Positions 1 through 49,298 of a stretch of 49,298 nucleotides of DNA are shown piece by piece. This stretch comes from an uncultured Candidatus Peribacteria bacterium. Lineage in GTDB: Bacteria > Patescibacteriota > Gracilibacteria > BD1-5 > UBA6164. The stretch covers positions 1 through 49,298 of the forward strand of contig CAZPIB010000002.1 of NCBI GenBank assembly GCA_964586815.1, read 5' to 3'. The position numbers and the translations under genes are program-made. The notes below the pieces were generated by a model. It worked only from the letters and a program-made list of their open reading frames with translations, did not search any database and was not told the DNA's origin. Within the stretch, counting starts at the first letter, position 1. Every line of letters starts with the position of its first letter.

Positions 1-55
1 TTCAGTTTTAGGAGCTTCAGTTTTAGGAGCTTCAGTTTTAGGAGCTTCAGTTTTA
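1..55. repeat. Terminal redundancy: bases 1-55 are identical to 49244-49298. The block is 3.7 copies of the 15-bp unit ttcagttttaggagc.
   Basis: Direct comparison of the first and last lines of the window. The ORF crossing the junction is in frame only if an overlap of 10+15k nt is removed. Confidence 0.9.
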
Positions 56-162: not shown

Positions 163-3100
163 TTACCAAACTTTTCTTAGTCTTTTTTTCTTTTTAGGTT
201 CAAAAACTTTATTCCAATCTTCTAAATTATCTTTTTGATCTTCTGTTGTATGATTACTTCTTTTAACTAAGTTTCTTATCTTAGCAATATGTAATCCAAC
301 TAAAAAACTATTTGTAATATCATCTTTAAACATACTTTTCATAGCAAGCCTACCCTTATTATCTTCATCTTCATAGATAAAATTCATTTCTTCTAATAAA
401 TCTTTATTTGAGGTTTTTAAAACCTCAACTATTCATTCTTCCATAAAATCTACTGCATTTCATATTAATCTAGTTTTAGAGACTCTCCAATCTATCCCTT
501 TTGATGATTCTGTATCTCAAGAAGTATATCAGATTTTAATGAGTGTTTTATCTTTAAAAGTATGCTTAAATGCTTCATTGAATCATTCTCATACTCATCT
601 AATATCAACTCAATATACTATCTTTGGAAAACTTCAGAATTGTTTAATGATTGTTTTTTGATAATATGAGATTTGTGTACTCCATTGTTTTTTATGAGAT
701 TTAGGTACAAATCCAGATAAAATAACATATATCTTTCAGTTAATAATATATAGAACTGTAAAAGCACTTCTATCTGCTCAAGGTCTAGCTGGATCAAAAG
801 TAATAATAAAATATCACTCTTCTCAAATAATTGGATATGAACTGGTTTGTAATGGCTTAAAAAGAATATCATCTCAACTGTTCCAGCTACAAAACCATTG
901 CCTTTGATTTTTGGCTTTTGCTTGATTTTTCATAACTCTTTCTCTAAGCTTTGGATTAACTAGAGGATTTTGAGTAATATCAATTTGATAATAACTAACA
1001 TCTGGTAGTGATTCTGATTTAACTGCAATTTTAATTCATGCTAATTCAATTCCTTTTTTTGCCTCCATTATTAAATCATAATAATATCATTTAGCAGTTT
1101 TTCAAGGAGTTCAAATTAAAATCATTCTTCAATTAGTTGTAGCAAGAGTTGGTTCAAGTACTTCTTCAAAAACATAATCACTAATTAATTGAGCCTCATC
1201 AATAATGATATTACTTAAAGTTAATCATAGTACATTTTCAGCATCTCAATCTAGTGTTCTAAAATAGATCTTAGTTCAACTTTTTGTATTTAAAATATAT
1301 CATTCAGATTTAAAGTGAGTAAATATCCCATCATCAAATTTATTAATAAACTTCAACATATAATTTCTAATTACATCTGTGGTTTTTTTAATATATCATC
1401 CAACTAAAGTATCTTCATTTGGTAGAAAACTTAATTCAACTGCTTTTTCAGCTATTGTCAAAGAATTATGAGTCAATATTCAGTTAGAAAAATATAATTC
1501 ATCATCTGATTTTACCGCTATAGTTACAACTTTTTCTTCTCAAATATATTCTATGTTTTTTATTTTAACCCAAAGATAATCTAACCAACTTTCTAAATTA
1601 TCTCAAATAAAGTGTTTTGATTTTATTTTTCTTCTTTGAAAAGGATAAGATGGCTTCTTATTGGTTCTACTAGTATTGGTTATATTATTGACTGCATCTA
1701 ATGGTATTAATGAAACTTTTCAATTAGTTTGAATGTTGTTATCTGTTAATCTTGCTTTAAATTTTGTATAATTTAATTTTGTAGTTATATCTATTTTTGA
1801 ATCTAATAAAATAAGACTCTCTTTGTTAGTTATATATAAATAATAAGCAAATTCTCTATGTTTTTTAAAATTACTTCTTATTTTTTTAGTTCTTATAGCA
1901 CAGATAACCCCTAACTTTAATAATAATAATTGAAGTTGAATAATTAATTGTTTCGAAGTAGAACAATATTCAATACTAGCTGCTCTATTATTAGATATAG
2001 ATAAATATGCATCAGTGTTAAATATTCATTCAAGAAAAGCCCATTGATTAATATTACTTGTTAAAAATACTTTATTGTCTATAAATTTTTCATAAGAATA
2101 TAAATCCACTCAATTAAAATTAGTCCTTTGTTTATATTTTTCAATATTATAAATATTTGATGTTCATTTTAAATTTGAAGTAATTTTATATTCAGAGATA
2201 ATATCTTTTAGTCTATTATGGTTTCAAGAAATTTGATTAGTTTTCCTGCATCAATCTCAAATAAAGTATCAAAGAAGCATAAAATCTTCTCTTGTGTGTG
2301 TTTCTTTTTTATTATCATTGTATCAAAAAGAGTAATTAAATGCTGTAGGAATGAATAAGTTAGCTTCTCTTTGTAGCCTTTCTTGTATTTTTCTTTCAGG
2401 AAGTGTTCTATTCTTATTTAATCTTCTGTTTTCTTTTAATATATCTAATTCTTTATTTAAATTAATGAATTTTTCAAATAAAGATTTAGCATTTATATAA
2501 TGTTCTTTATTATTTAATTTATTTGCATCCCATTTTTCTCAATTAAAATTATGAGAAAGTGGTATTCTATGTTCTTCAGATATTGTATGTTCCATTCAAT
2601 TTTCTAAAGTAATCTTATAACTTGGTTTTTTTGAATAAGAAAGTTGTGTGATTTCAGTAAATTTATAATTACTTCACAATATTTTATCTCATACCTTTAC
2701 GTGTTGGGCTTCTTTATATCAATAATCTTGACAGAATACCTTTTGGTTGTATAGTACACTTTTACCTAGTTGTCTACTTCAATCAAGTAAGATTATTGGA
2801 GAATCATCCTGTAGTAGAGTATCTTGCCATTTTATATAGACTTGTTTAGTTCCCCATTTTGGCACAACATAAGGGGAGTATCAAGTTATCTTTCTTATTG
2901 CATCTCTTGAAATTGTTAAAACTTTCTTTTTCTTTTTATTTTTATTTTTATTTTGTTCTGGTTTTTGAATTGTAGGTCTTTCAGTCTGAATAAAAGTATT
3001 ATTTCTTCAGTCTTTTTTAACTAACCATAATTTAAGTTCATCAATTTTATAATAATATCATTTAAAGAAATAGAAATTATTGTATTGTGATCTTGTTTTT

Positions 3101-3342
3101 TCAGAAATGATTTTATTATAGTATTCATGTTTAGAATATAATTCTATCATTTTTATGGTATGCTCTTGTTGTTTTGTTATATCAGTAAAAATCATAGCAT
3201 TATCAATATTCTCAAAATGAAATTCAAAAGGCAAAGTAAAATACCTAAGATTTTTCCATTTCTTAGGTTCTGCTTCTGGTATTAAATCCTCCTGAGCTGG
3301 ATTGAATGTTCAATTTTTAACTAGCCAATATTTATCTATCAT
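163..3342 (-). CDS. terL: Terminase large subunit, 1059 aa as a precursor, interrupted by an intein.
   Basis: The frame was hand-scanned and contains no TAA or TAG. Walker A is ILLDGSRQLGK/S, Walker B is NIIIDEAQ and the coupling motif is MILIGTPG, with both Gly of LIGTPG encoded by TGA. The ATG overlaps the stop of the upstream ORF. Confidence 0.85.
1465..2760 (-). mobile_element. Intein of 432 aa with a LAGLIDADG homing-endonuclease domain, inserted in the TerL P-loop.
   Basis: The N-terminus is SVLYNQKV directly after GSRQLGK. Block B is ISEEHRI. The LAGLIDADG motifs are LLGYFIGDGC and FLEGIFNTDAYLS. The C-terminus is FSNGILTHN followed by Ser. The spliced extein restores GSRQLGKSLTIAEKAV. 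Confidence 0.8.
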
Positions 3343-4978: not shown

Positions 4979-5480
4979 ATAAAAATTGTTATCATTTTGT
5001 TAACTTTTTGTACATTTTGCTTATAGTTATTTCAAAAGTTCTATGAATAGATCAACATTTTCAATTTTGACCCTATATATATTTATTTTTTTTCCTATAT
5101 AACCAAAAAAACACCCCTTCACAAATTAAACTATATCAATAAAAAAATAATTACATTCTATTCATAGTAGTTTCAAAATAACTATGAGCAAAAAGCGCAA
5201 AAAGTTAACAAAAAGTTAACAAAAAAAAAATAATAACATAAAAAAAATAAATGTAAAGAAAAAAAAAAAAAATGTTATTTTTTTGTTAACACTGTTTGTC
5301 TCTATTTAAAGGCATCTTGAGCCTTTTTGTACATTTTTTGTACTTTTTGTTAACTTTTTGTACATTTTGCTTTTTTATCTTTTTTTATAAAAATATATAC
5401 TTTCAGTAATAATAATAAATAAAAAAGTCTAAAAATCTTTTGACTTTTGTTTGCAAAAGAATATACTTAAGATAGTTAAT

Positions 5481-7684: not shown

Positions 7685-8116
7685 GTGACTAAAAAATCAC
7701 CTAACTGGAAGTATGAAGCTATATACTTCATACAAAATTGAAGAGGTAACTTTACTGGAGAATGATTTTCTGCTTACTGCAAGCGGGATAACAAGCAAAA
7801 CTCTTGGGGTCATTGAACCAAATGCAAAAACATTTGAGACAAAATAACACAAGAGCAAGCAGACTTAGAATTCCATAACCACCTTGTGCATATTTTTGAG
7901 CTAGTTGATAATTCAACTTGTTTCACTGACAATCAAAAAATAGCTTTAACAAGCTATATATATAATACCTGAGGTAATCAACTTAACCTCAGGAAACATA
8001 TACATAGATGCTCTCATAAAGACATAAGATACATTATGTCTATATGGGGCTGGAATAAAGAATTCCCTTGATTAAAACACAGAAGAATAGCTGAATTATA
8101 TTTATACGCTTTATAG
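7685..8116 (+). CDS. Glycoside hydrolase family 24 (T4/P22-type) lysozyme. As annotated it is 143 aa from a GTG start.
   Basis: The motifs are TGEGFSAYCKRD, SWGHG, ITQEQADLEF, FTDNQKIALTSYIYNTGG and GLKHRRIAELYLY, and several Gly are TGA. There is no ATG in the frame, which is open from 7631. Confidence 0.75.
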
Positions 8117-8147
8117 AGTAGATTTTAAATTAATAACCTTAAAACAA

Positions 8148-8498
8148 ATGCAAGAATTTAAAAAAGTAACCGATCCAAATAATTTTAAATGAAGTTGAAA
8201 AATGGGAAGTTTAGAAATAGATTATTTAGATTTAGTAGACAAAATTTGAGAACCTTTCAAATATACAGAAAATAATTTTCCAGATGATAAAAATAAAGTA
8301 CAGGTATGCTGGGGATTTAATAAGCAAAATGAAGCAGAACAAAATATTAATATAGCTATATGGGATTATAAAAGTTATGCTGATGATTTAGCAGAAATAA
8401 AACAGTTTAGTTTTTATGCTCCAACAGATAGACACTTACAAGAATTTTTAAAACAATATGATTTAGAAAATTATTTAGTAGAGAATTATTTAATTTAA
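8148..8498 (+). CDS. Hypothetical protein (116 aa).
   Basis: The ORF is open with TGA=Gly and has a TAA stop. Confidence 0.55.
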
Positions 8499-8516
8499 TA
8501 ATAAAAAAATAATATT

Positions 8517-8840
8517 ATGAAACTTAAAATAAAAGATTATATAAAATCTCTAGAAGAAATAGCAGAAGAAACTTATATGCAACAAGAGGATTATTTTGAT
8601 TTAAAAGATTTTTACATTGATGTAAAACATAGAGAAAAAGAACATAAAAAGGCTTTTGAAATATTGGGGAATTTAAATATTATTGTAGATCATATTCTTG
8701 AAAATGAATATAAAAATTTTCAAGAAAATTGTGAATGTGATATTGATGTTTGTGTTGATAATTGGGAGGTTTGCAAATGTCAAACTAATCATATTTATTA
8801 TATAGCACAAAAAGTATACAAAGGATTAAATAATATTTAA
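8517..8840 (+). CDS. Hypothetical Cys-rich protein (107 aa).
   Basis: It is complete in the supplied ORF track, has the ATTATG start context and a TAA stop. Confidence 0.65.
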   Translation: MKLKIKDYIKSLEEIAEETYMQQEDYFDLKDFYIDVKHREKEHKKAFEILGNLNIIVDHILENEYKNFQENCECDIDVCVDNWEVCKCQTNHIYYIAQKVYKGLNNI

Positions 8841-8995
8841 TAATATAAAAAGATGTCAAGAGCAAATGCGATTAAGTATGTGAAAAAATATCACACAAAA
8901 GAAGAAATAAATTTAATAGGGATGGAATCATTGATACAATTAAATATTGAATGAATCCTTTAACAACAATTTAATTTAATAATAAAAAATATATT

Positions 8996-9433
8996 ATGAG
9001 CAATATACAAGAAATTAAAATTTCAAAAAATCAATTAAATATTTTAAATGAAAGATGAGAAATATTTATAAATAATGAAAAAAGTTGAATATCAATTATA
9101 GCTGATGTGGTAAAATCAAATCCTAGAATTGAATATATTGAAGACCATTATGAAATAGATGATATTAAAATTAATGAGGATATTTTCCAAGAAGAAAAAT
9201 ATGATTATAGTATTGTGGATGTAGAGGATGAAATTAATAATCTTATTATGTTTATTCAAGAGTCTAAAAGTGATAGTCAAGCAGAATTAATGAAAGAAGA
9301 TTTAAGACAATTAATAAATTGTGATGAGGAGTATGTTTTTTCTTCAGTCAATACAAATGAATATATAGATTCTACTTATTGAGACCATTACAATTCTCAT
9401 TGTGAGGCAATTTTAAAACTTAATACAAAATAA
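8996..9433 (+). CDS. Hypothetical acidic protein (145 aa).
   Basis: The track ORF 9107-9382 extends on both sides through TGA codons. The start context is ATTATG. Confidence 0.6.
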
Positions 9434-9437
9434 TATT

Positions 9438-9650
9438 ATGAAAAATATAATAGAAAGAACTTTTGAAGAAATGTATTTTGGAGAGCAAACTTTATTTGCA
9501 GAATATGTAGAACAGTATTTTTTAGATACAGTTATAAAAAAAGCCAGTTCTAATATTGAAGGCTATTTATGAGAATATTATAAATGGTATAAAAAATTAA
9601 GTAAAGAAACTAAAGAAAATCTTATTATAGTTTTTAAACAAAATACATAA
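9438..9650 (+). CDS. Hypothetical protein (70 aa).
   Basis: It has the ATTATG start context, one TGA and a TAA stop. Confidence 0.5.
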
Positions 9651-9673
9651 TTTATTTTTAACAACAAAATATT

Positions 9674-9811
9674 ATGGCTAATTATTGTGGAATGTGTAGA
9701 TGAACAATTAAAGTGAATTATCACTCTGAAAGTGAATGAGATTATACTTGTAATGATTGTTATCAAGAAAGCATTAGAGATAAAAGTAAAAGTAGACATT
9801 ATAAAAATTAA
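9674..9811 (+). CDS. Small zinc-ribbon protein (45 aa).
   Basis: The sequence contains CGMC...CNDC, two CxxC pairs. Confidence 0.5.
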
Positions 9812-9832
9812 AAATTTATTTAAAAAAAACAT

Positions 9833-9866
9833 TTGCAATTTCAGATTTTATCTATACAATGTATAG
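9833..9866 (+). promoter_or_regulatory. Candidate promoter TTGCAA-16 nt-TACAAT, overlapped by a perfect 15-bp palindrome ctatacaatgtatag.
   Basis: The -35 box is at 9833-9838, the -10 box at 9855-9860 and the palindrome at 9852-9866. All lie in a 150-bp gap before the ORF at 9964. Confidence 0.4.
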
Positions 9867-9963
9867 GACTTATATTAATAATATTTAAGTATTATATAGA
9901 CATTTTAGAATAAGTCTTTAAAAAATTCTACCACATACTTTATATTTATAACATAATAATATT

Positions 9964-10530
9964 ATGGCAGTAGCAAAAGATAGTTTTGATAACTTCGATT
10001 GACAAGATGAAGTTCAGGTTGCTGGAAAGCCAGCAATTAAACAATTTAAAGAATGAGATACTTTTATAGGTTATTTACAATCTATAAATGATATTCCATT
10101 AGATGGAAAATCTAATAATCCATATTGAAATCCTAATTATGGGTCTAAGATATTTAATTTAATTAATATCTCAGAAAAAACAATAGACCATAAATCAGAT
10201 AATTGAAGAGCAACTTGAAAAGCAGTTGCCAATCCTCTTGATATAAATGTGGAATATTCTTTTTTTACCAACTATACTAAATACAAGAGTTGAACAGTTT
10301 GACCACATCCTATATCTTTTAAGTTATCAGAATTACCACTTGGGGCAGTGCTTCAAATAAAATTCATTTGATTAACTGAACCAGAGGCAGGAGGTAACCC
10401 CTATAGAAATGTTTCTATAATATGAAAAAAAGATAATAAATGAGATTATGTTATTCATCCAGATTATAAAGCAGTTGATAATTTTGATTGACAAGAGGAA
10501 GTTTCTATAGAGGATTTACCTTTTAGATAG
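9964..10530 (+). CDS. Hypothetical protein (188 aa), possibly a ssDNA-binding or annealing protein.
   Basis: The C-terminus EEVSIEDLPFR resembles the acidic DDDIPF-type SSB tail. The motif DNFDGQ(D/E)EV occurs at both termini. The stop is TAG. Confidence 0.35.
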
Positions 10531-14894: not shown

Positions 14895-15749
14895 ATGAAA
14901 GTATTAAGTTTATTTGATTGAATGAGTTGATGAATGTTAGCATTTAAAAAAGCAAATATAGAAGTAGATAGATATTTTGCAAGTGAAGTTAATAAATATG
15001 CTATTCAAATTAGTCAAAAGAATTTTCCAGAGATATCTCACATATGAGATATAACAAAAGTAATATTTACAGAAAAAATTGATATACTTATTTGATGAAG
15101 TCCTTGTCAAGGATTTAGCTTTGCTTGAAAACAATTAAATTTTGAAGACCCAAGAAGTAAATTATTCTTTGAATATGTTAGACTATTAAAAGAAGTTAAG
15201 CCTAAATATTTTTTACTTGAAAATGTAAAAATGAAAAAGGAATATCAAGATATAATTACAGAAAATTTATTTTGAGTTGAACCTATTGAAATAAATTCTA
15301 ATTTAGTTTCAGCACAAAACAGAAAAAGATTATACTGGTTTTGAAAACTAAAAGAAGATTGAACTTATAAAAAAATAGAAGTAATTCAACCACAAGATAA
15401 ATGATTTTTATTAAAAGATATTTTAGAAAAAGAAGTTGATGAAAAATATTATTTGTCTGAAAAAAATCTAAAACATTTACAAAGAGATTTTGGGAGTAAA
15501 TGAAAACAACAAAACATTAATAATAAAACCTGTACATTAACAGCTTCTATGTGAACTTGATGATGAAATGTTCCTTATTTTACAACTTTACATAAAAGAT
15601 TAAGAAAATTAACACCAATAGAATGTGAAAGATTACAAACTGTTCCAGATAATTATACAAAATGAGTTTCAAATACTCAAAGATATAAAATGCTTTGAAA
15701 TGGTTGGACTATTGATGTAATAGCTTATTTATTTAATCAACTAAATTAA
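14895..15749 (+). CDS. DNA (cytosine-5) methyltransferase (284 aa).
   Basis: Motif I is LSLFDGMSGGMLAF (TGA at 14919, 14928 and 14931). Motif IV is [14 protein letters not shown] (TGA TGA at 15093-15098). Further motifs are [29 protein letters not shown] and [10 protein letters not shown]. Confidence 0.9.
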
Positions 15750-18802: not shown

Positions 18803-21800
18803 ATGAATACTATATCAAAATTTACCATTAATCCTCTATCGAAAAAATATTCTTCTGATGAAATGGAATTCATTGATGAATTAAATCTATCAAAAGAAAT
18901 ATGATATGAATTTCCTCATTATTATTCTGATAATACAATTACTGGATATAGAGCAGCAATAATTAAGTGTGATGAAGTGGATGTTGATTACATAGAGCAA
19001 ATATATAAATTAAAACCAAATAAGATTTATTGCCATAAAAATGTAAGGCATTTAGTTTTCTATTTTAAAAATAGTCTTAATAAATATGACTATAATAGAA
19101 TTACAAAAGCATTAGGTTTCTTATATAAATGAAAAGCTATTAATTATCATTTTTATCCATTAAATGGAGTAATTGAAGAGTTTTCTTCAGGAGAACTAAA
19201 CAAGTCATTATCTGATACTTGTACAAAACTATATTTTTTCCAACAACAAAGTATAAAATATCAAAAACTTTTTACAATTAGTGAATTTGATAAATATCTT
19301 GAAGTTGAGAAACTTAAGATAAAAGAAGTTGTAATAGCTTTATATAAAAAAGAGCCAGCAGTAATTCCAGATATTTTAAAATTAATTGATATTAGAAATA
19401 ATATTCATAAAGAATATTGAAATGCTTTTTCTTTTGTTCATCATTATTATTCTAGTATTGAAAAAGCTAAACAATTTTTTAAAAATGATTTTAAGATTTG
19501 ATTTGAAGAAACCAACTCTTTTGATTTTACTAAAGCAAAAGAATGAATAGTAATAAAAGAAGGAGAAAACTTATTTTTAAGTGAATTTTGATATTTTTCA
19601 CTTGATCCATCTGGAAATAATAAAAGATTAACTGATTTTTATATAAAAGTTCATGCAAAAATAGTATGAAAAGACTGAAAACATTTTTTTGTTGTTACTT
19701 TAGTTAACCAATGAGAATGAACTGAAACCAAGAAAATGATATGGGAAAATAAAACTTCTGGAACTACATTTTCTGATTTTATCCAATCTTATTGACCTTA
19801 TCATTATTATGGATGACCAGCTTTTATTAAAGAATTACATAGGCAAATATCTTCAACTAAGCAAATTTCAACAATTCAACAAGTAGTCTGATATTGACAT
19901 CATAAATCTGAATGAATAATTATTTTTAAAAATTGAATATGGGATATAAAAGAAAGATTATTCACAAAAAAGAAAGATAATGATGATGATTATTATTATA
20001 ATTATGATAGTAAATGATATTGGGTTACAGATAAGGGTTGAAATTCATTAACAGAAGTTCTATCTACTTGAGTGCCTAATTTGAATATTGAAGGAGTTGT
20101 TGAGATGGGTGATATTCTTGATTTTATGTCAGAATTATATGCTGATAATTCTTGAAGTTACTTAGTATTTTTAGCATTTGGGATGATGGGGTATCTTACA
20201 TATTGAGATTCAACAAAACCTTTCCCACTAGTATTTACTAGATGAGTAACTTGATGTGTAGATTCAGAAACTGAATACTTAACACCAACTTGATGGAAAT
20301 ATATTAAAGATTATCAAGAATGAGATATAATTTGAGAATTTAATAAAGATACTTGAAAATGTATTTTTAACAAACCATTAGATTATATTAAAGAAAAAGA
20401 TAATAGATTAGCATACAGAATTAAAACTAAAAATATAGATATGCTTCTAACAGAAGAGCATAGATTATTATCACAATCACAAAGAGATGTTTATTCTACT
20501 ACTCAATTATGAGAAGTTGTTTCTGATTTAGAATTACATAAGCACCATAAAACAAATAAATATAATATTCCTGTTGTTTTTGATATTGAAGACAAAATAG
20601 GAATAGATTTATCTGATGTAGAATTACAATTAATGGTGGCAGTTATAGCTAATTGAAGTTTTCCTAAAAAAAATGTTTGATGAAGGTGATGAGAGTATAT
20701 ATCCTATATTAAGATAAAAAAAGAAAATAAAAAAAAGAGACTAAGGGAAATATTGAATAAAACTGATATTTTTGTAGAAGAAAAGAATAATCCCGAATGA
20801 TATACTACTTTCAAATTTGATGCACCAAGAAAAGATAAGGTGTTTTCTAAATATTATTGGGGTGCTAGTAAATCTCAATTAAAAATAATTGCTGAGGAAG
20901 TAAGTTATTGGGATTGAAGTGTAGATAGAAAAGAAAGTGCTGACTTTGTTCAATATGCTTTACTTATAACTAATCAAAGTAATGATATAGAGATTATATC
21001 AACTCAACAAAAAAAGAAATCTACCAGAATAGAATATAAAGATATTGTTAGAGAACAACTTACTGATTGAAATAAATATTGTTTTACAACTAATACAAGC
21101 TATTGGGTAGCTAGAAGAAAATGAAAAATTTTTATAACGTGAAATAGTTGAAAATCTACTTTTAATGAATTACTTCAAAGAGTTTGGGGAATTAAAAAGG
21201 CTGGTACAGATTTTGAAAACTCTACACTTTTTACGATGACAGTAACATTATCTTATTTGATAAAGTTCCCATATTTTATTGCAGAATATAGAGAATCAGC
21301 AAATCAAAGATTACAGAAAGTAGGAACTTTAAGAAGTGTATTTGATAAAATTTCTCAAACTAAAGGTAGAGCAGACCAGTCTGTTGTGAAATATGATTAT
21401 TTTGCTACACCAGTATTAGATTGAGAAGAAATGATAACTGATCCTGCATTAAGGACAAGAAGCTTACAATTACAATTATTAAAAAAACATAAAATTCAAT
21501 GAAACTTCTCAAAAATTTTAAGAGAATGATGATCTATTTTAGATAAATTAATGTTTACTTATTTATCTAAAAGTACTTGAGATAAATACCAAGACTATTT
21601 AGATGAATGATATGATTTTTTTAAAAAACAAACTAGTCAAAATAGAATAGCTCAAAATGTTGCAAGTATTTATGCTTGATGTATGGCATTTAATTCAGAA
21701 AAAGATAATGAAGATCAATATAAAATGGTATTATCTGAAATAATACTTTTCCAAGAAGAGGATGTTTCAGAAAATTCTAATCAAATGCAAATCATTAAAT

Positions 21801-22105
21801 TAATTTCTAAATTTATGGAGTCTTCTTACAATTGAATATATCCATTAAAAGACAGGGTTGTTATTAGTTGGAATGCTTTTGAGGAATATGTGAGTAGACA
21901 TAGACTAAAAACAACGTTAAAAATAGACACATATAAAGAACATTTAATGATAAGGGATTTTAATATAGAATTTATTGAGGTTTGAATTGAGTGATGATTA
22001 GTTGAGTGAATTATTATTCCTTATAAATTAATCCCCAAAAATTTATTAGTCCACACAGAAACATATAAATTTTATAAGGATTGGAAAAATTTATCTTCTA
22101 ATTAA
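18803..22105 (+). CDS. Large replication ATPase, primase/helicase-like with a P-loop (D5/P4-like). The precursor is 1100 aa and is interrupted by an intein.
   Basis: The whole frame was hand-scanned and contains no TAA or TAG. The P-loop is split as FTRGVTG / SGKSTFNELL, and splicing restores GVTGSGKST. Confidence 0.7.
20255..21145 (+). mobile_element. Intein of 297 aa with a LAGLIDADG-like endonuclease region, inserted in the Walker A loop of the replication ATPase.
   Basis: The N-terminus is CVDSETEYLTPTGW and block B is LLTEEHRLL. The endonuclease-like motifs are LMVAVIANGSF and IIAEEVSYWDGSV. The C-terminus is YWVARRKGKIFITGN followed by Ser. The penultimate residue is Gly (TGA) rather than the usual His. 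Confidence 0.7.
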
Positions 22106-31163: not shown

Positions 31164-31191
31164 AATAAAAAAAGCCCTATTTATAAGGCTT
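31164..31191 (-). terminator. Weak intrinsic terminator after the methyltransferase gene.
   Basis: On the minus strand AAGCC-10 nt-GGCTT is followed by T8. The stem is only 5 bp. Confidence 0.4.
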
Positions 31192-33373
31192 ATTTAAGTA
31201 AATTATCAAATATAGCTTTTACTACAGGTACACTTACTGCATTACCTGCTTGTTTATATGCTTGTGAATTACTCATAAATTCAGTAGACCAGTTATCAGG
31301 GAAGCCCTGTAATCTTGCACACTCTACAGGTGTTAATTTTCTTATTATAAAATCGTCTAAAACTACCCCGTCTACTCCTGCTACTGTTAAAGTTCCACTT
31401 ATTCACTCTTTAATTCTGCTTCTTTTTGTTATACTTTTTGGATTATCTAAAATAACACCGTCCCCTATTTTAGCCTCAGCATATCATTTTTTAGTCCCAT
31501 TGTTTAATTTTATAAATTCATATATCTTTGGTCTATTTCAACCATCTCCAGCTGTTAGAGTTGGTACTAATCAATCCATACCAATAAAAATATTATCCTG
31601 ACTAAAATTACAAAAACTAGGATCCTTTAAATTTACTTGTAGTTTTATTTGTTTGGAATCTCTTGGAGTTATTTTATTATAAATTCTTTTTAAACTATCA
31701 AAACTTAATTTTTTATATTGTTCTTCGGTCATAAAAAATTTACTATCTACTTCTTTTTCTAAAATATCTTTTAAGAAAATATTTAATTCTTTACCTTCTG
31801 GGAAGTTGAAATAATCTAAAGTTCCCACACCTAATTTTCAAACTATAAAAACCCTTTGTCTATTTTGTGGCAATCAAAAATCTTTTGTATTTAAAACTTG
31901 AAATTTTACATCATAACCAGCATCTTTTATTCTATCTAAAATACTTTCAAAAAATCATTTGAATTTTTTATTTAAAAGCCCTTTTACATTTTCAAAAATA
32001 AAATATTGTGGTTGTTTTGTTTCTAAAATCTGTAATAAATATTCAACTAGTATAGTTCTTCAACCTTCCTTTAGGTTTTGTTTTCACGCTACACTAACAT
32101 CCTGACAATTATGTACAATGCAATTGTTTGCTGTGTAAGAATTATCATTTTCAACTTCTATATTATAAACAGTATTTGTTTCTTCTAAATATTCTTTTGA
32201 TTTAAAAGGTAGCCACATATATCAATTTATATTAATTCAATTGTCTTGTGTTTTTTTTTCGAACTTAATATCTAATGAATAAGTATCCCTCTGGTTAACT
32301 TCTCTTCATTCAATAATTGTTTTAGGTTTTCTTTTTGTATAATATACAGATGTAGGAGTTCAATATACTTTATGAACTAATTGTTGTATTCATAATATAA
32401 GTTTTTTTGATACAGATGAAACACGGTAATATCACTTATCCTTATAATAGTGTCAATCTCAGTCTATATATCATATTAATAATTGCTCTAAGTATTCTTT
32501 ATTTAATCACATTATTGATGTTGGTATAAATTTTCAATAACTGTATTTTCAAAATTGTTCCATATACTCCACAAATTCTTTATTTGCAATATAATATTTT
32601 AAAACAGTTCTGTCATCTACTTTTGAATAATTAAATAATCACTCTAGTAATTCTTCTACTTCTTTGTATTGATTTTTATTACAACACAATACTACTCTGT
32701 GTGATTTACGCTGTATATTTGGTCATCTACTATAACTACCCCACCATCCATCTGCTAGAAGCCTTCAAACTAATTTGTAAAATTTTAAACTTTTATCAGA
32801 ACATTCTGTAAGATCATCTTGAATGTTAAATCATATAAAATCTCATTTATTTAAATCTTCTACATTTTTCCACTTCGGTTCACTAAAAACTCTTTCATAT
32901 TTTCTAATTGAATTATTCCACTTTTTAGTCATTTCCCTTACATAATATGGATGCTCATTTGTTACAAAAGTTTCTAATGCTCCCTGTATTTTAACATTAT
33001 AAATTCATTTTTTATTTGGAGTTACAAAATGCCTTAATACTTTTTGATATTTATTTGTGTGTGTTAATACATAATCTCAAACTTCCATATTTTTAATATC
33101 TTTATATCACTTTTGTGTTAATACCATTGTTCATTCTTTAAAACAAGGAAATCCACCAGTTAATAAATCAAAATCAGGTAAATTTTCTATATCTATTTTT
33201 GTTATATCTCATAAATCAGGACTAGTTGCAAAATGTTCTTTATAAACTATTTTAGCAAATTTATCTATTTCGCTAAAGCCTATACATTCAATATTTTCTT
33301 TACCTATACTTTTCTCTAAGGCTAAATGAAAACCACCTATACCAGAAAAGGTATCTAAAAATTTCATAATCAT
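31190..33373 (-). CDS. DNA (cytosine-5) methyltransferase. The precursor is 727 aa and is interrupted by an intein at the catalytic Cys.
   Basis: The frame was hand-scanned and is open. Motif I is FLDTFSGIGGFHLAL. Motif IV is split as LLTGGFP / CQDVSVAGKQ. Further motifs are ENVKGL, QNRQRVFIVG, RKLTPVECARLQGFPDNW and AGNAVSVPV. Confidence 0.85.
32108..33145 (-). mobile_element. Intein of 346 aa with a LAGLIDADG homing endonuclease, inserted between Pro and the catalytic Cys of methyltransferase motif IV.
   Basis: The N-terminus is CFKEGTMVLT and block B is VTNEHPYYV. The LAGLIDADG motifs are LVGRLLADGWWG and LLIGYIDGDGHY. The C-terminus is TANNCIVHN followed by Cys. Confidence 0.8.
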
Positions 33374-48904: not shown

Positions 48905-49298
48905 TTAAATCTTTGAAATAACTTCATTTATTAATCCTTGTAATTTAATCTTGAAAGGATTACTATCTGGAATTTCTTTTTTAGCCTCTTCAAGTAAAGT
49001 TAAAAGTTTAGATTTTTTAGGAGTTTCTTTTTTTACTATATTTTTATCTGGCTCTGGAGAAAATTTTAATGCCTCATCAGTATCAATAAATTCTAAATAA
49101 CCTTTTTTCATTTTTGGATTAATAATAGTTCCATCAATTCTTTTAACTCTCACAGAAAAAGTTTCTTTAATTATTCCTCATTTTTCATTTGTAATTTTTT
49201 TCCCAATTTCATCTCAATTAATATCTAAAATGATAAAATCTTTTTCAGTTTTAGGAGCTTCAGTTTTAGGAGCTTCAGTTTTAGGAGCTTCAGTTTTA
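48905..49298 (-). CDS. 3' part of the junction-spanning ORF (see 1-72).
   Basis: The track ORF 48905-49153 extends upstream through two TGA into the APKTE repeat. Confidence 0.6.
49244..49298. repeat. Terminal redundancy copy, identical to 1-55.
   Basis: Direct comparison of the two ends. Confidence 0.9.

What the first reader, a model, noticed from the sequence alone, without database searches (positions are those of the whole stretch)
32108..33145. Third intein, placed immediately before the catalytic cysteine of a C5 DNA methyltransferase
Motif IV of the methyltransferase is split as LLTGGFP | CFKEGTMVLT...TANNCIVHN | CQDVSVAGKQ. The insert has the block A pattern C-F-x-x-G-T-x-V-L, block B TNEH, two clear LAGLIDADG motifs (LVGRLLADGWWG, LLIGYIDGDGHY) and a terminal HN. 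The +1 nucleophile needed for splicing would be the enzyme's own catalytic Cys of the P-C-Q motif. Methyltransferases are, to my knowledge, uncommon intein hosts. Methylation activity, and hence any self-protection it provides, would depend on splicing.
Basis: partly seen in the sequence, partly recalled or inferred. Interest (0 to 1): 0.8.

Follow-up and report, generated by a model that had tools for sequence, protein, structure and literature searches.

The report
Intein splitting a phage cytosine methylase
A self-splicing, mobile protein element (an intein with its own homing endonuclease) sits just before the catalytic cysteine of a phage DNA cytosine methylase; the call is correct, but the same insertion site is already occupied in many public phage and bacterial sequences, so this is a new member of a known kind.

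Summary
On the minus strand, 31190..33373 is one 727-codon gene if TGA is read as Gly (code 25). Codons 77-422 (window 32108..33145) form a 346-aa insert between Pro76 and the PCQ cysteine of motif IV. Profile searches, invariant family residues (C1, TxxH, HN, +1 Cys, both LAGLIDADG Asp-Gly cores), an AlphaFold model and Foldseek matches (TliVMA, PI-SceI, PI-PfuI inteins, and M.HhaI on both sides of the insert) all indicate a class-1 intein with a LAGLIDADG homing endonuclease. Removing it in silico gives a 381-aa enzyme that matches PF00145 end to end and is collinear with intein-free homologs up to 65% identical.

The novelty claim is overstated. All 120 best database hits (the window's own deposited protein among them) have Pro at -1 and Cys at +1 at the same site. 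Cultivated phages carry the same-site intein (Escherichia A4, P1-like RCS47, Lactobacillus Nyseid). At least 35 IMG/VR contigs also do, and a 2025 survey already lists C-5 methylases as intein hosts.

Points of moderate interest: Pro at -1 is invariant although the literature calls it non-permissive; the subclade is locked to code 25 (21 of 24 intein Gly codons are TGA); intein similarity is discordant with extein similarity. The phage also encodes a second, intein-free C5 methylase. Splicing and endonuclease activity are inferred, not tested.

The parts
31190..33373 (-). Precursor gene: C5 DNA methyltransferase interrupted by an intein. 727 codons plus a TAA stop, read with genetic code 25 (TGA=Gly, 31 in-frame TGA).
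   Evidence: translation; TGA=Gly; PF00145 241 bits in two stretches plus intein domains.
33146..33373 (-). N-extein, aa 1-76. It carries motif I (FSGIGG, AdoMet binding) and the first half of motif IV, ending in G-G-F-P.
   Evidence: It aligns to M.HhaI residues 12 onward.
32108..33145 (-). Intein, aa 77-422 (346 aa). Class-1 type with Cys1, block B T138-x-x-H141, and terminal H421-N422.
   Evidence: Intein_splicing 39.3 bits against a cut-off of 35.8; Hint_2 30.4 against 28.4; intein_Cterm 19.6 against 15.6. (C77, T138, H141, N422 invariant; H421 in 119 of 120). (fold).
32828..33145 (-). N-terminal Hint (splicing) lobe, aa 77-182, containing blocks A and B. Approximate boundary, taken from the model.
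   Evidence: beta strands 83-182, pLDDT blocks about 68-94. (aa 6-70 of the insert resemble the gp41-1 intein 6qaz, E 2e-5).
32336..32797 (-). LAGLIDADG homing-endonuclease domain, aa about 193-346. Approximate boundaries, taken from the model.
   Evidence: LAGLIDADG_3 30.6 bits against a cut-off of 22.5; Hom_end 22.5 against 21.1. (two alpha/beta halves, each starting with a long helix). (PI-SceI, PI-PfuI, TliVMA).
32747..32773 (-). LAGLIDADG motif 1, L201-G209 (LVGRLLADG). D208 is the predicted catalytic acid.
   Evidence: G203, R204, D208 and G209 are invariant in 56 family members.
32453..32479 (-). LAGLIDADG motif 2, L299-G307 (LIGYIDGDG). D306 is the predicted catalytic acid. All three Gly codons are TGA.
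   Evidence: G301, D306 and G307 are invariant.
32108..32323 (-). C-terminal Hint lobe, aa 351-422, containing blocks F and G (VYNIEVENDNSYTANNCIVHN).
   Evidence: strands 351-421. (V402, Y403, V407, S412, H421 and N422 conserved). (intein_Cterm).
32105..32107 (-). Cys423 codon (TGT). It is the +1 splice nucleophile and also the catalytic Cys of motif IV (P-C-Q).
   Evidence: codon read by hand. (aligns with the GFPCQ cysteine of M.HhaI; that this residue is the catalytic Cys81 is established knowledge). Cys in 120 of 120 homologs.
31190..32107 (-). C-extein, aa 423-727 plus the stop. It carries the rest of motif IV (CQDVSVAGKQ), motifs VI (ENV) and VIII (QNRQR), the variable target-recognition region, and motifs IX (RKLTPVECARLQGFP) and X (GNAV).
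   Evidence: The target-recognition region (aa about 558-666) has low model confidence.

Best explanation
This is a canonical class-1 intein carrying an intact double-motif LAGLIDADG homing endonuclease. It is inserted in frame between Pro76 and the catalytic Cys of motif IV (G-F-P|C-Q) of an HhaI/Dcm-type C5 DNA methyltransferase. The host is a tailed phage that uses genetic code 25 (TGA=Gly), so the host bacterium is presumably from the Gracilibacteria or a related lineage.

Inferred mechanism. The 727-aa precursor cannot methylate DNA, because 346 residues separate the motif IV proline from its nucleophile. Cys77 (intein Cys1) attacks the Pro76 carbonyl in an N-S acyl shift, helped by block B T138/H141. 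Cys423 (+1) takes over the N-extein by trans-thioesterification. Asn422, helped by His421, cyclises and releases the intein. An S-N shift then rebuilds a native Pro-Cys peptide bond. The products are a 381-aa active methylase and a free 346-aa endonuclease. The endonuclease cuts intein-free alleles at the conserved motif IV DNA, and recombinational repair copies the intein into them (homing).

Shown here: the anatomy, conservation of all catalytic residues, the fold, collinearity with empty alleles, the patchy distribution, and the mismatch between intein and extein similarity. Inferred only: actual splicing, cleavage and methylation.
For: (1) Profiles. The insert alone hits Intein_splicing, Hint_2, LAGLIDADG_3, Hom_end and intein_Cterm above their curated cut-offs. 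The in-silico spliced product hits PF00145 1-323/324 in one stretch at 263 bits (the precursor gives 241 bits in two stretches) and TIGR00675 dcm 1-329/329.
(2) The spliced product aligns to M.HhaI across the junction at GFPCQ..S..GKQ (E 2.3e-44). It has motifs I, IV, VI, VIII, IX and X in canonical order.
(3) The ten closest intein-free homologs (up to 65% identity, 99-100% coverage) have an uninterrupted GFP-CQDVSVAGKQ and no residues in the insert columns.
(4) Family conservation. Among the 120 same-site sequences, -1 is Pro in 120, Cys1 in 120, T138 in 120, H141 in 120, H421 in 119, N422 in 120 and +1 Cys in 120. D208-G209 and D306-G307 of both LAGLIDADG motifs are invariant in a 56-sequence alignment.
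(5) Structure. In the AF2 model the intein blocks have pLDDT about 76-94. Foldseek gives TliVMA intein 7qsu (E 1.5e-15, TM 0.65 by target), PI-SceI, PI-PfuI, and M.HhaI aligned over about 731 columns on both sides of the insert.
(6) Signs of mobility. The nearest intein relatives are L013 (80.5% aa) and P0002 (72%), but their exteins are only 58-70% and about 40% identical, while the nearest exteins are intein-free. The empty-allele DNA is 47/60 identical to the joined flanks.
(7) The same junction is occupied in cultivated phages: A4, Nyseid, RCS47 and 587AP2.
Against: There is no experimental evidence of splicing, endonuclease or methylase activity for this protein. Pro at -1 is reported to block splicing in tested inteins (PMC6486613 abstract; PMC13014065 section 2.2), so efficient splicing cannot be taken for granted. 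The block F position that is usually Asp is Asn here (VYNIEV; Asn in 98 and Asp in 22 of the 120 sequences). The model's pTM is only 0.51, and the junctions and the target-recognition region have low confidence. The phage has a second C5 methylase, so selection on this one could be relaxed.
Confidence: 0.88

Rival explanations
1. The intein is real but splices poorly, slowly or only under certain conditions. Candidate causes are Pro at -1, or a Cys1/Cys+1 redox trap. In that case the precursor would work as a post-translational timer or switch for methylase activity, or the methylase would be largely inactive and the element would persist mainly as a homing parasite.
For: Pro at -1 gave no detectable splicing in a tested intein (PMC13014065). 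PMC6486613 states that natural and engineered inteins had failed with Pro at -1. Cys1 and Cys+1 are both present. The phage has a second, intein-free C5 methylase that could reduce dependence on this one. In Mannheimia phage 587AP2 the same-site intein is followed by a frameshift, so at least one host gene looks decayed.
Against: Residues needed only for splicing (C1, T138, H141, H421, N422) are invariant or nearly so across 120 sequences that share only about 35-45% identity. This argues for sustained selection on splicing with Pro at -1. The extein motifs are all intact. The family is abundant and occurs in viable cultivated phages.
Confidence: 0.1
2. The insert is not an intein. It would instead be an in-frame domain insertion that stays in the mature protein, such as a free-standing LAGLIDADG endonuclease fusion, a bacterial intein-like (BIL)/Hint domain, or an unusual target-recognition module.
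For: In-frame LAGLIDADG insertions that are not inteins have been described in actinophage methylases (PMC9957025).
Against: The endonuclease domain is bracketed by both Hint lobes, with blocks A, B, F and G complete. The insert ends in H-N followed by Cys. It splits the P-C dipeptide that forms the active site, so a retained insert would leave the catalytic loop broken. Intein-free homologs are exactly collinear. Whole-intein structures are the best fold matches.
Confidence: 0.01
3. This is an artefact of the genetic code or the assembly. TGA would be a stop or Trp, and the region would be a set of gene fragments or a pseudogene rather than one precursor.
For: Under table 11 the region breaks into ORFs of fewer than 90 aa. 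The public record translated it with Trp at TGA (P0001).
Against: At TGA codons the homologs have Gly 1947 times and Trp 63 times. At TGG codons they have Trp 369 and Gly 0. Across the window's long ORFs, TGA is the commonest Gly codon (575 uses), and none of 37 such ORFs ends in TGA. The TGA codons fall on the invariant glycines of both LAGLIDADG motifs and of motif IV.
Confidence: 0.01

Closest known systems
Same-site inteins in C5 methyltransferases of cultivated phages: Escherichia phage A4 gp120 (ON286972), ph0011, UE-S1, Lactobacillus phage Nyseid (MG765276), and P1-like Escherichia phage RCS47 Dmt (FO818745). Depositors annotated these only as methyltransferases.
   Same: The junction is identical, G-x-P|C...HN|C-Q-x-x-S-x-x-G-K. 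The size is similar (about 340-350 aa) and the Hint plus LAGLIDADG architecture is the same. The inteins align over 100% of their length at 29-38% identity.
   Different: Those phages use the standard genetic code and have unrelated hosts and genomes. Identity to the window's intein is only 29-38%. The window's intein belongs to a code-25 subclade that also includes L013 at 80.5% and the Ca. Gracilibacteria MAG protein P0002 at 72%.
C-5 DNA methylase inteins listed in the actinobacteriophage intein survey (bioRxiv 10.1101/2025.01.02.630785)
   Same: The host family is the same (InterPro IPR001525, C-5 cytosine methyltransferase) and the setting is a phage genome.
   Different: The text I could read gives no insertion site and does not discuss the catalytic Cys or Pro at -1. 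I could not test whether the site is the same.
Mycobacteriophage DNMT-1/DNMT-2 inteins (Kelley et al. 2016, PMC5050341) and the actinophage methylase intein of PMC9957025
   Same: These are also inteins with LAGLIDADG endonucleases in phage DNA methylases. They show about 28% identity over the full length of the window's intein.
   Different: The host enzymes are N6/N4 methylases (PF01555). That class of enzyme has no catalytic cysteine, so the insertion site and the +1 logic differ.
PI-SceI (VMA1 intein), TliVMA/PhoVMA inteins and PI-PfuI: solved endonuclease-bearing inteins
   Same: They share the overall architecture, a Hint splicing domain interrupted by a double LAGLIDADG endonuclease. 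They are the top Foldseek hits (E 1.5e-15 to 1e-9, TM up to 0.65 by target).
   Different: Sequence identity is only 11-14%. Their hosts are V-ATPase and ribonucleotide reductase. The window's intein is smaller (346 aa against 454 for PI-SceI). I did not look for an extra DNA-recognition region.
gp41-1 mini-intein (PDB 6qaz, 6riz)
   Same: It is the closest solved sequence relative of the N-terminal Hint lobe (E 2e-5 over aa 6-70). The C-terminal ...ANxxxxHN block is alike.
   Different: gp41-1 is a naturally split mini-intein without an endonuclease, found in a helicase.

Membership tests
Intein (class 1, Hint-fold protein-splicing element) | Hint splicing domain with blocks A, B, F and G | tested here: met
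   Pfam Intein_splicing 39.3 bits (cut-off 35.8), Hint_2 30.4 (28.4), NCBIfam intein_Cterm 19.6 (15.6). The model has beta-rich N and C lobes, and whole inteins are the best PDB fold matches.
Intein (class 1, Hint-fold protein-splicing element) | N-terminal nucleophile (Cys/Ser at position 1) and block B T-x-x-H | tested here: met
   Cys77, and T138-N-E-H141. All three residues are present in 120 of 120 family members.
Intein (class 1, Hint-fold protein-splicing element) | C-terminal His-Asn followed by a +1 Cys/Ser/Thr | tested here: met
   H421-N422|C423. In the family, N422 and C423 are present in 120 of 120 and H421 in 119 of 120.
Intein (class 1, Hint-fold protein-splicing element) | In-frame insertion whose removal restores a host protein collinear with intein-free homologs | tested here: met
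   The spliced product matches PF00145 1-323/324 in one stretch. The ten nearest intein-free homologs place no residues in the insert columns.
Intein (class 1, Hint-fold protein-splicing element) | Sporadic presence or absence among homologous host genes | tested here: met
   Occupied alleles are shown, and empty alleles up to 65% identical. Intein similarity and extein similarity are discordant.
Intein (class 1, Hint-fold protein-splicing element) | Autocatalytic excision and ligation of the exteins | not testable with these tools
   This needs expression of a recoded gene followed by SDS-PAGE or mass spectrometry. Pro at -1 makes the test worthwhile (PMC6486613, PMC13014065).
LAGLIDADG homing endonuclease (single-chain, double-motif) | Two LAGLIDADG helices, each ending in a catalytic acidic residue followed by Gly | tested here: met
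   LVGRLLAD208G and LIGYIDGD306G. D208, G209, D306 and G307 are invariant in 56 sequences. LAGLIDADG_3 and Hom_end score above their cut-offs. Helices 193-208 and 292-305 are in the model.
LAGLIDADG homing endonuclease (single-chain, double-motif) | Site-specific cleavage of the intein-free allele | not testable with these tools
   I could only show that a candidate target exists. The empty alleles L005 and L006 are 47/60 nt identical to the joined flanks, and 27/30 on the 5' side.
C5 DNA cytosine methyltransferase (PF00145 / TIGR00675 dcm, HhaI-like) | Conserved motifs I (FxGxG), IV (PCQ), VI (ENV), VIII (QxRxR), IX and X (GN) in canonical order | tested here: met
   All six are found in the spliced product at aa 9, 76, 115, 157, 332 and 364. 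PF00145 scores 263 bits and dcm 260 bits. M.HhaI matches at E 2.3e-44.
C5 DNA cytosine methyltransferase (PF00145 / TIGR00675 dcm, HhaI-like) | Contiguous motif IV catalytic loop in the translated product | tested here: not met
   In the precursor, Pro76 and Cys423 are separated by 346 residues, and there is no second PC motif. The feature is met only after splicing. The precursor is therefore a pro-enzyme, and family membership applies to the spliced form.
C5 DNA cytosine methyltransferase (PF00145 / TIGR00675 dcm, HhaI-like) | AdoMet-dependent methylation of cytosine C5 at a specific sequence | not testable with these tools
   The target-recognition region (aa about 558-666 of the precursor) is poorly modelled. 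I did not predict a specificity.

The most novel reading that the evidence does not exclude
This intein family has evolved to splice with proline at -1, since the P of the methylase P-C motif is invariant in 120 of 120 members. The literature describes Pro at -1 as non-permissive for natural and engineered inteins. If so, the family would be a natural source of inteins that work at Pro-Cys junctions. The window's code-25-locked member and its relatives would also mark an intein lineage whose horizontal spread is fenced in by a genetic-code barrier. A bolder version is that slow or redox-gated splicing at Pro-Cys times the methylase's activity during infection.
Probability: 0.65. Interest if true: 0.5.

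Novelty: new member of a known kind. Interest (0 to 1): 0.35.

Why it matters
For this phage, one of its two C5 methylases can only become active after protein splicing, because the intein separates the motif IV proline from the catalytic cysteine. Any protection from restriction that this enzyme gives is therefore conditional on splicing.

More generally, the motif IV P|C site turns out to be a heavily used intein homing site that depositors usually annotate just as 'methyltransferase'. It fits the known rule that inteins settle in the most conserved catalytic residues.

Two points may be useful beyond bookkeeping. First, the family keeps Pro at -1, which protein engineers treat as a forbidden junction, so its members are candidates for splicing at Pro-Cys sites. 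Second, the window's subclade encodes nearly all its glycines with TGA. It cannot be expressed in standard-code cells, which makes it a clean case of a genetic code limiting the spread of a selfish element.

It also flags a practical annotation problem: the public record of this contig, and many of its relatives, were translated with Trp at TGA.

Tried and rejected
I used the deposited W-for-G version, P0001, instead.
- Megablast of the gene against 50,697 phage records found nothing.
- The search for related loci in IMG/VR found no close relatives with either the spliced extein or the intein as a single query. A degenerate codon pattern for the C-junction worked instead.
- Several literature searches found no paper describing the motif IV site: intein with 'cytosine methyltransferase', PF00145, COG0270, or 'catalytic cysteine'. 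The papers opened from them were irrelevant: a CASP14 N4-methylase, a Bt phage, a Thermus phage RNR intein, reference-list mentions in a Halobacteria paper, and Pectobacterium phage CB7.
- Four literature calls failed on term syntax or returned nothing useful.
- Rejected readings: target-recognition or other methylase domain; an intact motif IV elsewhere in the protein; TGA as Trp or stop; a pseudogene (intact 727-codon frame with all motifs).
- I did not run the search of protein representatives. Only full-length database proteins would have been accepted, and those would have returned ordinary methylases.
Full report
OBSERVATION. The feature lies on the minus strand. Under table 11 the region breaks into short ORFs. 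One frame reads through from 33373 down to a TAA at 31190-31192 if TGA is a sense codon. That gives 727 codons with 31 in-frame TGA. The junctions are LLTGGFP|CFKEGTMVLT and TANNCIVHN|CQDVSVAGKQ. Block B TNEH is at aa 138-141, and the LAGLIDADG motifs are at aa 201-212 and 298-309. I confirmed the boundary codons by hand. By my own arithmetic, at 25% GC the chance of 728 codons free of TAA and TAG is about 1e-23.

GENETIC CODE. The window's own protein is in the public collection (P0001, from a contig of 49,298 nt). It differs from my translation only by Trp at all 31 TGA codons. I tested Gly against Trp using 119 homologs. At the TGA codons their columns hold Gly 1947 times and Trp 63 times out of 3422 cells, and the Trp cells come from a few sequences that appear to be similarly mistranslated. 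At the gene's TGG codons they hold Trp 369 times and Gly 0 times. Across the window's long ORFs, TGA is the commonest Gly codon (575 uses), and no ORF ends in TGA. So TGA is Gly, which is code 25.

WHAT IT IS. The insert alone matches Pfam Intein_splicing (39.3 bits against a cut-off of 35.8), Hint_2 (30.4 against 28.4), LAGLIDADG_3 (30.6 against 22.5) and Hom_end (22.5 against 21.1), and NCBIfam intein_Cterm (19.6 against 15.6). It matches no methylase or target-recognition profile. Removing it in silico gives a 381-aa protein that matches PF00145 over 1-323/324 in one stretch at 263 bits. The precursor scores 241 bits in two stretches. The spliced product also matches TIGR00675 dcm over 1-329/329. 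It aligns to M.HhaI at E 2.3e-44, with GFPCQ..S..GKQ running straight across the junction. That the cysteine in this motif is the catalytic nucleophile (Cys81 of M.HhaI) is established knowledge. Motifs I, IV, VI, VIII, IX and X are present in canonical order, and the precursor has only one PC dipeptide, at the junction.

STRUCTURE. The model has a mean pLDDT of 76. The intein is confident, with 10-residue block means of about 76-94. It shows a beta-rich N lobe (83-182), an alpha/beta domain whose two long helices begin at the LAGLIDADG motifs (193-208 and 292-305), and a beta-rich C lobe (342-421). Confidence collapses at the two junctions and in the target-recognition region. The best Foldseek matches in the PDB are endonuclease-bearing inteins: TliVMA 7qsu (E 1.5e-15, TM 0.65 by target), PI-SceI, PI-PfuI and PhoVMA. 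M.HhaI also matches, aligned across about 731 columns, meaning on both sides of the insert. The N-terminal Hint lobe also resembles the gp41-1 intein by sequence.

HOW COMMON IS IT. A search with the precursor returned 4173 significant hits. The best 120 were nearly all C5 methylases that also carry Hint or intein domains, and JGI names one of them 'site-specific DNA-cytosine methylase/intein/homing endonuclease'. In an alignment of these 120 sequences (119 homologs plus the window's own protein), -1 is Pro in 120, +1 is Cys in 120, +2 is Gln in 107 and Thr in 13, and 119 have Cys1 together with a terminal His-Asn. Intein lengths run from 325 to 375 aa. C77, T138, H141, N422 and C423 are invariant, as are D208-G209 and D306-G307 of the two LAGLIDADG motifs. 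This shows selection on both the splicing and the endonuclease functions.

Cultivated phages have the same junction: Escherichia phage A4 gp120 (GGFP|CFPAGT...VVHN|CQAWSVAGKQ), Lactobacillus phage Nyseid, P1-like phage RCS47 Dmt, and Mannheimia phage 587AP2, where a frameshift follows the junction. One narrow codon pattern for N-N-x-x-V-H-N|C-Q found 85 IMG/VR stretches. Of these, 29 have both methylase junctions in one frame and 6 more have only the C-junction on the locus.

In the literature, inteins are described in N6/N4 methylases of mycobacteriophages (PMC5050341; PMC9957025). A 2025 survey lists 'DNA methylase N-6/N-4 (PF01555) and C-5 (IPR001525)' among intein-invaded actinophage proteins (bioRxiv 10.1101/2025.01.02.630785). 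In the library I could search, I found no paper that discusses the motif IV site itself.

EVIDENCE OF MOBILITY. Intein-free homologs of the spliced enzyme reach 65% identity at 99-100% coverage. The ten closest have an uninterrupted GFP-CQDVSVAGKQ, and their W-for-G pattern shows they also come from TGA-recoded genomes. The closest inteins sit in more distant exteins. P0002 comes from a Ca. Gracilibacteria MAG, where it sits next to dnaN and yidD. Its intein is 72% identical but its extein only about 40%. The code-25 viral contig L013 (IMGVR_UViG_3300035698_017699) has an intein 80.5% identical, against 69.7% for the N-extein and 57.9% for the C-extein. An intein that is better conserved than its host gene, together with empty alleles among the nearest exteins, is the expected signature of homing. 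The empty-allele DNA (L005, L006) is 47/60 identical to the window's joined flanks, and 27/30 on the 5' side.

MECHANISM (inferred). The precursor should be catalytically dead, because 346 residues separate Pro76 from its nucleophile Cys423. Standard class-1 splicing would restore a native Pro-Cys bond and release an active LAGLIDADG endonuclease that targets empty motif IV DNA. The steps are an N-S shift at Pro76-Cys77, trans-thioesterification to Cys423, cyclisation of Asn422, and an S-N shift.

POINTS OF REAL INTEREST.
(a) Pro at -1 is invariant. PMC6486613 states that natural and engineered inteins had failed with Pro at -1 or +2. PMC13014065 found no detectable splicing with Pro at -1 in its test intein. 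Since the splicing residues are conserved, the family is probably adapted to this junction. This leaves open a minority rival of slow or conditional splicing.
(b) The intein encodes 21 of its 24 glycines with TGA, including those of both LAGLIDADG motifs. The extein uses TGA for 10 of 34 and the rest of the genome for 66%. The element is committed to code 25 and would terminate at its fifth codon in a standard-code cell.
(c) The phage carries at least two inteins (see CONTEXT).

CONTEXT. The window is a tailed-phage genome. It has an SU10-like portal and major capsid protein, a helicase, and a large terminase that carries its own 423-aa LAGLIDADG intein. A 55-nt terminal overlap suggests a circular assembly. 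There are no tRNA genes. A second C5 methylase at 14895..15749 is intein-free, with an intact [14 protein letters not shown]. It is only about 35% identical to the spliced enzyme and has a shorter variable region. So the phage's cytosine methylation does not depend wholly on splicing. The third intein candidate, in ORF 18803..22105, rests on motifs alone.

VERDICT. The novelty is modest. This is a new, code-25 member of a large intein family at a recurrent homing site. That family is well represented in sequence databases, sparsely noted in the literature, and seldom annotated. Splicing, cleavage and methylation remain untested.

Noticed in passing
window 31190..33373 (-) and the whole window: The public (NCBI) copy of this contig's protein, P0001, has Trp at all 31 TGA codons, so it was deposited under code 4. 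Homolog columns show Gly, which means code 25. Many of the nearest database homologs (P0003, P0004, P0027, P0121-P0134) show the same W-for-G mistranslation.
   Followed up: yes
window 163..3342 (-); intein about 1465..2733 (-): The large terminase subunit carries a 423-aa LAGLIDADG intein at aa 204-626, with junctions KVF|CQDYG and ILTHN|SLT. LAGLIDADG_3 scores 44.6 bits. After in-silico splicing, Terminase_6N matches 4-209/215 above its cut-off.
   Followed up: partly
window 18803..22105 (+); candidate insert 20255..21145: A candidate 297-aa insert splits a P-loop (RGVTG|CVDSETEYL ... KIFITGN|SGKST). The penultimate residue is Gly rather than His. Neither the insert nor the spliced host has any Pfam support, so this remains a motif-level candidate.
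   Followed up: partly
window 14895..15749 (+): A second, intein-free C5 DNA methyltransferase of 284 aa matches PF00145 over 1-322/324 and has an intact [14 protein letters not shown]. It is about 35% identical to the spliced enzyme. Its motif IV DNA is 40/60 identical to the putative homing site.
   Followed up: partly
window 31190..33373 (-) compared with 14895..15749 (+) and the other long ORFs: TGA's share of Gly codons is uneven: 88% in the intein (21/24), 29% in its host extein (10/34), 86% in the second methylase (18/21) and 66% genome-wide. The extein's low value is unexplained. It might reflect a different history for the host gene.
   Followed up: no
window 1..55 and 49244..49298: The first and last 55 nt are identical, as in a circularised k=55 assembly. 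The overlap lies inside a 15-nt tandem repeat (TTCAGTTTTAGGAGC), so the contig may also have broken at a repeat.
   Followed up: partly
L013 (IMGVR_UViG_3300035698_017699), minus strand around 5215-5241: This is a second code-25 viral contig (GC 25%) with the same-site methylase intein. The intein is 80.5% identical in protein and 81.7% in DNA to the window's, while the extein is only 58-70% identical. The C-terminal part of its methylase diverges or may be frameshifted.
   Followed up: partly
L007 (GCA_030949885.1 JAUZSB010000030.1), 8001-9983: The closest properly translated relative of the intein (P0002, 72% identical) is in a Ca. Gracilibacteria MAG, in a chromosomal-looking neighbourhood that includes dnaN and yidD. 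This hints at intein exchange between code-25 bacteria and their phages.
   Followed up: partly
L003 (Mannheimia phage vB_MhS_587AP2, KP137435), locus 1264-3100: This phage has the same-site intein, but the reading frame shifts right after HN|CQS. The depositors annotated the two parts as 'hypothetical protein' and 'cytosine-specific DNA methyltransferase'. It is either a decayed host gene or a sequencing error.
   Followed up: no
phage collection hits: Relatives of this intein at 28-31% identity over its full length also sit in the anaerobic ribonucleotide reductase of Lactococcus phages (949, P1048, AM4/AM5), in mycobacteriophage N6 methylase or helicase genes, and in 48 Erwinia phage records that I did not inspect.
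   Followed up: no
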